Assembly (NCBI RefSeq): GCF_024502345.1
Contig: NZ_JALDNN010000001.1
Length of the DNA: 64,000 nt
DNA from: Escherichia coli
Lineage (GTDB): Bacteria; Pseudomonadota; Gammaproteobacteria; Enterobacterales; Enterobacteriaceae
Direction: 5' to 3' (one strand)
This document shows, piece by piece, positions 43,008 to 44,058 of this stretch. A program made the translations under genes and the position numbers. The notes under the pieces are model-generated. The model saw nothing but the letters and a program-made list of their open reading frames with translations. It did no database searches and was not told the DNA's origin. How positions within the stretch are numbered: position 1 is the first letter of the stretch; each line of letters opens with the position of its first letter.

Positions 43008-44058
43008 ATTTTCCCTTTGCTTGGATTTGAGTTACCTATTTTGGGGTAGTCATTATAAAACTATTAATTAGTAAAACGAACAAGTTTTCATTTGTTTAGC
43101 AATGGTATTGTTTAGGTTTGATATTATTACGTACTTTCATAGCAATAGGTTGGATAAACAGCAGTTCAGGGAACAAGTTGCACTATCTACATACTTTTCC
43201 GCTTTCCATTGCATGTTAGGTAATAGATAGCCTTTGCCCGTAAGACTAAAAATATTAGAAATGACTCATTCGAATACCTTCTATTCACCTTAATATAGGT
43301 TTGATTATTGTAATCGTTTAATGTGTCTTATGGATTTTTTCCTACTTTTCATTTGCATAATATAGGGGGCACAGCATGCTCTTGAAATTAATTATTAAAA
43401 TATTTAAATTTTACAGCACACAACTACTTTTCGTTGTCTTATGTGTTGAACGTACTTCGAGTATAGGTAGGGTTGTATATATATTGCGTGGGTAGAGTTA
43501 GAATAGAGGAAGCATCATTTATAGAATATTCAAGAACGTTAGCCTGTGATCAATAAATAAAAATATCAAATGGTGTTCAAACATATTTTTCTATGAAAAA
43601 TCCAGCCATCTATGATGAATTTTTAGATCCATTTTAATTAAAGTATGATTATGAACCAAGATTTAGCCAAGAATGGTGGTATAGCGCGTATCCAATGACA
43701 CCGGAAAACGCATCTATGAAGTCCTTATTTATCTCTATAAGAGGAAATCAACACTAATAAAATGTAGTGATGTAACACATCGAGCAGGTTGCTCTGATGC
43801 TGGTCTTCAACTGTGGCTTAAACAGCTATCAAACTTCGGTGTTATTGAGATGAAAGAATTATCATTCTCAACTATCAATCTCAAAAAGCTAGAGAAAATA
43901 GACCTTAATTATTCCACTCTCTAAATTTATCTATTTATTTAAAGTAAAAATGAAAATATTATGGTATCAGCTACGTGGTGGTAACTGGTTTTTATGATCA
44001 TAGGTACATATACAGGGAACCCTGGAAAACGAAAGTAATATATTGATGATTTCGTTTG

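What the first reader, a model, noticed from the sequence alone, without database searches (positions are those of the whole stretch)
43651..43921. Probable frameshifted gene remnant in the AT-rich spacer
A 79-codon stop-free frame (43685..43921, plus strand: RVSNDTGKRIYEVLIYLYKRKSTLIKCSDVTHRAGCSDAGLQLWLKQLSNFGVIEMKELSFSTINLKKLEKIDLNYSTL) lies in DNA where stops should be frequent. It has no start codon, but a short ATG-initiated frame just upstream (43651: MNQDLAKNGGIARIQ) would join it with a single frameshift. This suggests a decayed regulator-like gene and implies the islet is old and eroding.
Basis: seen in the sequence. Interest (0 to 1): 0.3.

Follow-up and report, generated by a model that had tools for sequence, protein, structure and literature searches.

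The report
Frameshifted gene relic of decayed mobile element
The open frame is a real but dead gene: a frameshifted copy of a small DNA-binding protein gene, left behind with two other gene stumps by a mobile element that once inserted into the thiamine riboswitch in front of thiM, so it is an ordinary pseudogene.

Summary
ATG 43651 opens 15 codons and stops at TGA. A 79-codon stop-free frame runs 43685..43921.

Openness alone is not significant: 21% of shuffles of the spacer give a run this long. Homology settles it. The frame is 73% identical (E 6e-39) to intact 81-94-aa Escherichia proteins.

- **The lesion.** Frame 1 still encodes the family's invariant R-I-Q. The break is best read as a 5-nt deletion at 43694/43695 that creates the TGA. 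The ribosome-binding site is also lost.
- **Spread.** All but possibly one of 339 complete E. coli genomes with this islet (including O157:H7) and 4 metagenome contigs share the lesion. One copy has a second frameshift and one has an IS1 insertion.
- **The parent gene.** It encodes a predicted winged-helix protein and always follows a replication-initiator-like gene in integrase-bearing elements.
- **The islet.** At this locus such elements sit between 82-bp repeats of the thiM TPP riboswitch. The window keeps only the right repeat, an integrase 3' stump (43145..43243) and an initiator 3' stump (43497..43637). Three neighbouring islet genes are intact and under purifying selection.

Verdict: an ordinary, unannotated pseudogene.

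The parts
43651..43924 (+). Pseudogene of a small (about 93-aa) winged-helix protein gene. Codons 1-15 are in frame 1 (43651..43695, then TGA 43696-98). The rest is in frame 2 from Asn 43694 to Leu 43921, with TAA at 43922-24. The lesion is best placed at 43694/43695 as loss of 5 nt (GTGTA, removing the Cys codon), net -2 relative to intact genes.
43638..43650 (+). Degenerate translation-initiation region. Intact copies have TAATAAGGAGGnnTATG. The window has TAATTAAAGTATGATTATG, so the Shine-Dalgarno AAGGAGG is lost and 2 nt are added.
   Evidence: alignments
43497..43637 (+). 3' stump (last 42-46 codons) of the replication-initiator-like (HTH_36, lambda-O-like) gene that precedes the small gene in intact elements. 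It has an in-frame TAA at 43554-43556. About 175 5' codons are missing.
43145..43243 (+). 3' stump (last ~32 codons) of the element's tyrosine integrase gene. The window reads ...YLHTFPLSIAC*VIDSLCP*. The CREC-544 integrase C-terminus reads ...YLHTFPLSTVCYVIDGLCWET*. There is an in-frame TAG at 43217-43219 and the terminal stop codons align.
44059..44298 (-). Intact HTH_73 (PF24718) gene of the element, convergent with the pseudogene. It is a homologue of ECD_02033, which lies upstream of ecoBLmcrX in the E. coli B island next to thiM. dN/dS is 0.03-0.08.
42336..43007 (-). Two intact small genes with signal-peptide-like N-termini (104 and 115 aa). They are also present in the integrase-bearing PEC389 element. 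dN/dS is 0.05.
44498..44579 (+). 82-bp attachment repeat (right copy only), forming the 5' part of the thiM TPP riboswitch (Rfam hit 44501..44597). In full elements an identical copy lies next to the integrase gene. The window has no second copy.
42225..44497 (.). The whole islet (2273 bp), which replaces 90 bp of the K-12 rcnR-thiM spacer. The left junction falls in the rcnR stop codon (TGA here, TAA in K-12).

Best explanation
Window 43651..43924 is a non-functional pseudogene. It derives from a small (81-94 aa) winged-helix protein gene. In intact elements this gene is the second gene of a two-gene module, placed directly behind a replication-initiator-like gene. Those elements carry a tyrosine integrase.

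An element of this family integrated into the 5' part of the thiM TPP riboswitch. Later deletions removed the left attachment repeat, nearly all of the integrase gene and most of the initiator gene. The small gene then lost 5 nt just after its 15th codon, which created a TGA, and it lost its ribosome-binding site. Since then it has drifted neutrally.

Shown here: the homology, the lesion, its near-fixation, the gene stumps and the missing att repeat. Inferred: the order of the events and the DNA-binding role of the ancestral protein.
For: - **Homology.** 73% identity, E 6e-39, to intact proteins. The DNA is 86.7% identical over 43619..44699 to the intact element at the same locus in CREC-544.
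- **Lesion.** Frame 1 keeps the invariant R-I-Q and frame 2 resumes at N-D-T-G-K. The Shine-Dalgarno sequence is lost.
- **Spread.** The same lesion is in 339 complete genomes (338 verified without an indel or listed as such) and in 4 metagenome contigs.
- **Further damage.** There is a second 1-nt deletion in metagenome locus L015 and an IS1 insertion in NCTC9064.
- **Relaxed selection.** Among islet copies there are 8 non-synonymous and 3 synonymous changes. Several hit positions invariant in intact proteins. Pairwise dN/dS is 0.85-1.4, against 0.04-0.25 among intact genes.
- **Neighbouring stumps.** The initiator and integrase stumps both carry in-frame stops.
- **Attachment sites.** Full elements lie between 82-bp riboswitch repeats at this locus. 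The window has only one copy.
- **Annotation.** RefSeq annotates nothing here.
Against: - The selection test after the frameshift rests on only about 11 substitutions.
- The exact indel is ambiguous. Placing a 2-nt gap upstream, as MAFFT does, is an alternative to a 3-nt gain plus a 5-nt loss.
- No expression data could be consulted.
- One of the 339 genomes differs from both reference alleles in the 101-nt test stretch and was not inspected.
- The position of the integrase stump, to the right of the two small genes, does not fit a single simple deletion of a CREC-544- or PEC389-type element.
Confidence: 0.93

Rival explanations
1. The gene is still expressed as one protein through a programmed +1 ribosomal frameshift at CAA-TGA-C, as in prfB. 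Skipping the T would give ...ARIQ-DTGKRIY....
For: The shift site is a UGA-C stop, the weak termination context used by prfB. A +1 shift there restores the homologous frame with loss of only two residues, in a region the model predicts as disordered.
Against: - tRNA-Gln on CAA cannot re-pair on AAU, and no Shine-Dalgarno-like stimulator lies 3 nt upstream.
- The initiation Shine-Dalgarno sequence is destroyed, and the upstream gene to which intact copies are coupled is gone.
- All intact homologues are single ORFs.
- Islet copies accumulate non-synonymous changes, a second frameshift and an IS1.
Confidence: 0.03
2. The 79-codon frame is a chance open stretch in AT-rich DNA and not a gene remnant.
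For: Runs of this length arise in 21% of shuffles of the spacer.
Against: There is strong protein and DNA homology to intact genes in conserved synteny.
Confidence: 0.01
3. The coding function is dead, but the DNA has been kept for a non-coding role. For example, it could act as a spacer or terminator between the convergent HTH_73 gene and the rest of the islet, or as a regulatory or silenced AT-rich tract.
For: The 1-kb spacer is retained at over 97.5% identity in all carriers, and the flanking genes are under selection.
Against: - No terminator-like or promoter-like signal exceeds the shuffled expectation in 43000..44058.
- There is no Rfam match.
- An IS1 insertion is tolerated in NCTC9064.
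- The high identity is explained by the recent common ancestry of the carriers.
Confidence: 0.05

Closest known systems
Integrase-bearing elements at the same rcnR-thiM locus in E. coli CREC-544 (NZ_CP024826) and PEC389 (NZ_CM168012), known only as RefSeq annotation
   Same: They share the insertion point, the 82-bp riboswitch repeat and the right-end genes: the HTH_73 gene and, in CREC-544, the initiator-like gene plus an 81-aa homologue. PEC389 also carries the two small genes with signal-peptide-like N-termini.
   Different: They retain both repeats, a 435-aa integrase, a serine recombinase and cargo (an HNH endonuclease or a TIR protein). The window has only stumps and a frameshifted small gene.
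Variable genome island adjacent to thiM in E. coli B carrying ECD_02033 and ecoBLmcrX (Fomenkov et al. 2017, PMC5487053)
   Same: It lies at the same chromosomal position next to thiM. ECD_02033 (81 codons, MQMTETQI...) is the homologue of the window's HTH_73 gene.
   Different: The B island carries a modification-dependent restriction enzyme downstream of that gene. The window has the pseudogene converging on it instead. In the passages searched, the paper names no integrase for this island and does not mention the riboswitch or the small winged-helix gene.
Winged-helix DNA-binding domains (CodY C-terminal domain, ArsR/HlyU, MarR, TubR, Z-alpha; winged-helix domains of RepA/RepL-type initiators)
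   Same: The predicted topology is H-S-H-H-S-S. The best Foldseek matches are all of this fold, with TM about 0.5-0.6.
   Different: No sequence-family membership: Pfam HrcA_DNA-bdg scores only E 0.032, below its cut-off, and there is no PHROG. The E-values of the fold matches are weak (1.9e-3 and worse).
Integrative elements that insert into the end of a gene and rebuild it (tRNA-targeting islands; dusA-specific integrases, PMC4482086)
   Same: A tyrosine integrase lies next to one repeat. The element carries a copy of the target's end, so the target stays intact after insertion.
   Different: The target here is the 5' half of a riboswitch aptamer rather than a tRNA or a coding sequence. The rebuilt copy is therefore preceded by element DNA, not the native promoter region.
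Ten- to twelve-kb capsid-gene-bearing relatives at thrW and other sites (E. coli AREA_497, UTME-14, Escherichia sp. E1V33, loci L009-L011)
   Same: They share the initiator-like gene followed by the small winged-helix gene, the serine or small tyrosine recombinase, and an ORF-poor stretch that is conserved among the Escherichia members.
   Different: They use a different integrase and att site. They also carry a lambda-E-like capsid gene, a tape-measure-like gene and a Dit-like gene, which are absent from the thiM-site elements seen here.

Membership tests
Pseudogene (disabled copy of a protein-coding gene) | Significant homology to intact protein-coding genes | tested here: met
   E 6e-39 and 73% identity to P0002. 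Twenty homologues found.
Pseudogene (disabled copy of a protein-coding gene) | Reading frame disrupted relative to intact homologues | tested here: met
   Net -2 shift between codon 15 and Asn 43694, with TGA at 43696.
Pseudogene (disabled copy of a protein-coding gene) | Loss of expression signals | tested here: met
   The Shine-Dalgarno AAGGAGG is replaced by AAGTATG. The upstream co-transcribed gene is reduced to a stump.
Pseudogene (disabled copy of a protein-coding gene) | Relaxed selection after the lesion | tested here: inconclusive
   Eight non-synonymous against three synonymous changes, dN/dS 0.85-1.4, an extra frameshift and an IS1. Only about 11 substitutions are available.
Pseudogene (disabled copy of a protein-coding gene) | No protein product | not testable with these tools
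   Needs ribosome profiling or proteomics.
Winged-helix (wHTH) DNA-binding proteins (ancestral product) | H1-S1-H2-H3-S2-wing-S3 topology | tested here: met
   AlphaFold2 model of the intact relative: core pLDDT 83-90, H16-29 E35-38 H39-46 H50-62 E66-70 E75-81. All best PDB and viral matches are wHTH.
Winged-helix (wHTH) DNA-binding proteins (ancestral product) | Match to a curated wHTH sequence family above threshold | tested here: not met
   Best Pfam hit is HrcA_DNA-bdg, 14.3 bits against a cut-off of 21. No PHROG.
Winged-helix (wHTH) DNA-binding proteins (ancestral product) | Sequence-specific DNA binding or regulatory activity | not testable with these tools
   Needs EMSA or ChIP with a repaired or intact homologue.
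Site-specific integrative element (the islet as a whole) | Functional integrase gene | tested here: not met
   Only a ~32-codon 3' stump with an in-frame TAG.
Site-specific integrative element (the islet as a whole) | Flanking direct att repeats | tested here: not met
   One copy only in the 64-kb window. Both copies are present in CREC-544 and PEC389.
Programmed +1 frameshift gene (prfB type) | Slippery P-site codon that re-pairs in the +1 frame, with an upstream Shine-Dalgarno-like stimulator | tested here: not met
   CAA to AAU does not re-pair, and there is no SD-like element 3 nt upstream.
Programmed +1 frameshift gene (prfB type) | Frameshift conserved among functional homologues | tested here: not met
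   All intact homologues are single ORFs.
Phage satellites (PICI, cfPICI, P4-like), for the parent element family | Integrase plus replication module plus genes that exploit a helper phage, with helper-dependent transfer | not tested
   Integrase, an initiator-like gene and, in thrW-type relatives, lambda-E-like capsid, tape-measure-like and Dit-like genes were seen. Helper dependence and the defining marker genes were not examined.

The most novel reading that the evidence does not exclude
The relic marks a family of integrative elements, seemingly not described as such. These elements use the 5' half of the thiM TPP riboswitch as their attachment site and rebuild it with their own copy.

If so, in every carrier the thiMD operon is preceded by element DNA (window 44317..44497) instead of the native promoter region. 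Carriers are about 6% of complete E. coli genomes with the relic, including O157:H7, plus about 4% with an integrase-bearing element. The native promoter region plus a truncated aptamer would then face the integrase gene. The PEC389 right copy differs from the native sequence only in the P3 loop and at the 5' edge, which suggests selection to keep the rebuilt aptamer working.
Probability: 0.45. Interest if true: 0.45.

Novelty: new member of a known kind. Interest (0 to 1): 0.2.

Why it matters
In itself it matters little. It adds one unannotated pseudogene and two gene stumps to the O157:H7-type rcnR-thiM islet. It also shows that this islet is the fossil of a site-specific mobile element rather than a piece of unexplained AT-rich DNA.

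It is useful for annotation, because RefSeq leaves 43008..44058 empty. It also dates the islet: the lesion is shared by lineages about 2.5% apart.

The more interesting by-product is the element family itself. It targets a riboswitch, carries variable defence-type cargo (an HNH endonuclease, a TIR protein and, in E. coli B, EcoBLMcrX), and displaces the native thiMD upstream region.

Tried and rejected
- **Openness as evidence.** Rejected: 21% of shuffles reach 79 codons.
- **Sequence-family assignment.** Pfam, PHROGs and a tblastn of 50,697 phage records gave nothing usable for the small protein.
- **Wider homologue searches.** An exhaustive profile search of 1.84 billion representatives found only 14 hits, and GTDB species representatives gave one locus. 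The family is very narrow, and no intact copy of the window's own allele exists in these sets.
- **Metagenome scan.** A gapped-pattern scan allowing 0-8 nt at the lesion found only the frameshifted form.
- **Second att repeat.** None in the islet or the whole window.
- **Signals in the spacer.** The promoter and terminator scan found nothing above expectation.
- **Single-deletion origin.** Deriving the islet by one deletion from a CREC-544- or PEC389-type element was rejected. The integrase stump lies to the right of the two small genes, so at least three junctions are needed, with either a tandem or a rearranged ancestor.
- **Structured RNA in full elements.** A structured RNA in the ORF-poor conserved stretch is not supported. 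There is no Rfam hit, and the RNAalifold covariation term is unfavourable.
- **Literature.** No paper was found describing integration into the thiM riboswitch, but the searches were not exhaustive.

Full report
**Setting.** The window is Escherichia coli chromosome. The finding lies in an AT-rich tract (31-36% GC) between rcnR (41954..42226) and the TPP riboswitch and thiM (riboswitch 44501..44597, thiM from 44632). In K-12 these genes are separated by only 222 bp. Alignment with K-12 shows that window 42225..44497 (2273 bp) replaces 90 bp of the K-12 spacer. The left junction falls in the rcnR stop codon, which is TGA here and TAA in K-12. The same islet occurs in about 340-360 of 5426 complete E. 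coli genomes, including O157:H7 EDL933. There RefSeq annotates two small genes, an 'HTH-like domain' gene and nothing in between.

**Check of the observation.** The frames are exactly as described.
- ATG 43651 opens MNQDLAKNGGIARIQ and is closed by TGA at 43696-43698.
- The other frame is stop-free for 79 codons (43685..43921) and ends with TAA at 43922-43924.
- That frame has no start codon before the Met codon 24 codons from its end.

The statistical premise is weak. In 5000 dinucleotide-preserving shuffles of the 1051-bp spacer, a stop-free run of 79 or more codons appeared in 21% of cases. Openness alone therefore proves nothing.

**Homology.**
- The raw 79-aa frame is 73% identical (E 6e-39) to an intact 92-aa protein.
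All that carry a source name are from E. coli. The best is a 76-aa 'partial' product of this same frame, and the others are intact proteins of 75-92 aa.
- An exhaustive profile search of 1.84 billion cluster representatives added only two more distant full-length members of 92 and 94 aa.
- GTDB species representatives gave one locus, in Escherichia sp. E1V33.
- No phage record matched.

About 370 complete E. coli genomes carry an intact copy, annotated as a hypothetical protein.

**Where the frame breaks.** Intact proteins begin MIQYLVKNQVDRIQCNDTGK, and R-I-Q-C-N-D are invariant. The window's frame 1 reads ...KNGGIARIQ-stop and frame 2 resumes at NDTGK. The ancestral frame is therefore kept through codon 15, and the shift lies between 43695 and 43697. 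The intact ...CA GTGTA ATGACAC... has become ...CAATGACAC.... This is a 5-nt loss that removes the Cys codon and creates the TGA. Upstream there is one extra codon (GGIA against QVD), so the net change is -2. MAFFT instead places a 2-nt gap a few bases upstream, so the exact event is an inference. The Shine-Dalgarno sequence of intact copies (AAGGAGG) is AAGTATG here.

**Is it dead?**
- All 339 complete genomes that hold the shift region match it over exactly the same length in every listed case. They fall into two alleles that both carry the lesion. One genome fits neither allele perfectly and was not inspected.
- A metagenome scan that allowed 0-8 extra bases at the lesion returned four contigs, all with zero extra bases.
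- One of those contigs has a second 1-nt deletion at 43745.
- Strain NCTC9064 has an IS1 inside the remnant.
- Among islet copies I counted 8 non-synonymous and 3 synonymous differences. Several hit positions that never vary in intact proteins (Y4D, Y39C, H44Y, L57F, Q59H, F76I). Pairwise dN/dS is 0.85-1.4, against 0.04-0.25 among intact genes.
- The frame-corrected window sequence against intact genes gives dN/dS 0.14-0.29 at dS 0.65-1.1. The allele therefore evolved as a working gene for most of its history, and the inactivation is comparatively recent. It still predates the split of carrier lineages that now differ by about 2.5%.

**What the gene was.** An AlphaFold2 model of the intact protein has a confident core (pLDDT 83-90) with helix-strand-helix-helix-strand-strand topology, which is a winged helix. 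The best matches are all winged-helix domains.
- Among solved structures: the CodY C-terminal domain, Z-alpha, TubR, ArsR/HlyU and MarR.
- Among viral models: RepA- and RepL-type initiator domains and MarR-like regulators.

The E-values are weak, 1.9e-3 and worse. No Pfam or PHROG family is met.

In every intact locus the gene sits directly behind a 217-274-aa protein. The spacing is 11-20 nt, or a 4-nt overlap. That protein has an HTH_36 domain and matches PHROG 'replication initiation O-like / DnaD-like' families. 'Regulator-like' is therefore plausible, but a role as an accessory of the initiator is equally open.

**What the islet is.** In strain CREC-544 the same rcnR-thiM site holds a 7.7-kb element. 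Its parts, in order, are:
- an 82-bp copy of the start of the TPP riboswitch;
- a 435-aa tyrosine integrase;
- an HNH endonuclease and an HTH protein;
- a serine recombinase;
- an ORF-poor stretch;
- the initiator-like gene and an 81-aa homologue of the pseudogene;
- the HTH_73 gene;
- the second 82-bp copy, followed by the rest of the riboswitch and thiM.

PEC389 has an 11-kb variant with a TIR protein and with homologues of the window's two small genes. Window 43619..44699 is 86.7% identical to the right end of the CREC-544 element. The integrase occurs in 222 complete genomes, and in the listed high-identity matches a riboswitch is annotated under the match.

The window has only the right repeat. 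A translated search of the spacer with all stop-free segments of the related elements found two more stumps, both on the plus strand.
- The last ~32 codons of the integrase lie at 43145..43243, with an in-frame TAG and aligned terminal stops.
- The last 42-46 codons of the initiator-like gene lie at 43497..43637, with an in-frame TAA.

The spacer is thus a graveyard of three genes of one element type. At least three deletion junctions are required. Because the integrase stump lies to the right of the two small genes, the ancestor was probably a tandem or rearranged element. This last point is inference.

**Not everything is eroding.** The two small genes with signal-peptide-like N-termini (42336..43007) and the HTH_73 gene (44059..44298) are intact. 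They show dN/dS of 0.03-0.08 across element variants. The HTH_73 gene is the homologue of ECD_02033, the 81-codon ORF upstream of ecoBLmcrX in the variable island next to thiM in E. coli B (PMC5487053).

**Rivals.**
- A prfB-like programmed +1 shift at CAA-TGA-C would restore the frame. It lacks a slippery codon, a stimulator, an initiation signal and any conservation among homologues.
- A chance ORF is excluded by homology.
- A retained non-coding role cannot be excluded but has no support.

**Verdict.** This is a real but ordinary pseudogene inside the fossil of a site-specific mobile element. Openness was not significant by itself, and only the central kilobase of the islet is decaying. The noteworthy side result is the element family's use of the thiM riboswitch as its attachment site. 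I did not find this described, but my literature searches were limited.

Noticed in passing
window 44317..44597; L005 7036..7300 and 14726..15006; L008 2657..2925 and 13500..13785: The element family integrates into the thiM TPP riboswitch. The att repeat is the first 82 nt of the riboswitch region (44498..44579). In carriers, thiMD is preceded by element DNA, while the native K-12-type spacer plus a truncated aptamer faces the integrase gene. The PEC389 right copy differs from the native sequence in the P3 loop (UGCGU to UUAAAU, stem kept) and at its 5' edge.
   Followed up: partly
window 43145..43243: Unannotated 3' stump of a tyrosine integrase gene (YLHTFPLS...C.VID.LC motif) with an in-frame TAG. 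It lies to the right of the two small genes, which no full element seen here would predict.
   Followed up: yes
window 43497..43637: Unannotated 3' stump of the replication-initiator-like gene, with an in-frame TAA at 43554-43556. Its C-terminus resembles the thrW-type (AREA_497) version more than the CREC-544 version.
   Followed up: yes
window 42336..42650 and 42660..43007 (minus strand): Two small proteins with signal-peptide-like N-termini and no known function. They are conserved in the PEC389 element under strong purifying selection (dN/dS 0.05). The second has a distant homologue in the CREC-544 element (L005 9536..9883).
   Followed up: partly
window 44059..44298 (minus strand): This HTH_73 gene is the homologue of ECD_02033, which precedes the restriction gene ecoBLmcrX in E. 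coli B and a DUF6998 gene in PEC389. Here it has no downstream partner and converges on the pseudogene.
   Followed up: partly
L005 11177..12766; L004 13151..14811; L003, L012 equivalents: An ORF-poor stretch of about 1.6 kb between the serine recombinase and the initiator-like gene is 80-94% conserved among Escherichia elements at different att sites. A core of about 230 nt (with TGCGCTGTGCGCA) is recognisable in distant relatives (L010, L011, PEC389). There is no Rfam match, and RNAalifold gave no net covariation support. Origin, operator or RNA remains undecided.
   Followed up: partly
L004 11100..23300; L009, L010, L011: Relatives at thrW and other sites are 10-12-kb elements. They carry an integrase, the initiator-plus-winged-helix module, a 119-120-aa gene followed by a lambda-E-like capsid gene, a tape-measure-like 610-625-aa gene and sometimes a Dit-like gene. 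No portal or terminase was recognised. They may be a phage satellite or mini-prophage of a kind I could not place.
   Followed up: partly
alignment A3, residues 18-34 of the small protein family: Many E. coli variants carry different in-frame deletions clustered in the GKRIYETLAYLYKGK segment (helix 1 of the model). This suggests a deletion-prone repeat or relaxed constraint there.
   Followed up: no
window 42224..42226: The islet's left junction coincides with the rcnR stop codon. The codon is TGA here and TAA in K-12, so the deletion or insertion boundary just spares rcnR.
   Followed up: yes
window 43244..43496: About 250 bp between the integrase and initiator stumps has no detectable relative in any related element examined.
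   Followed up: partly
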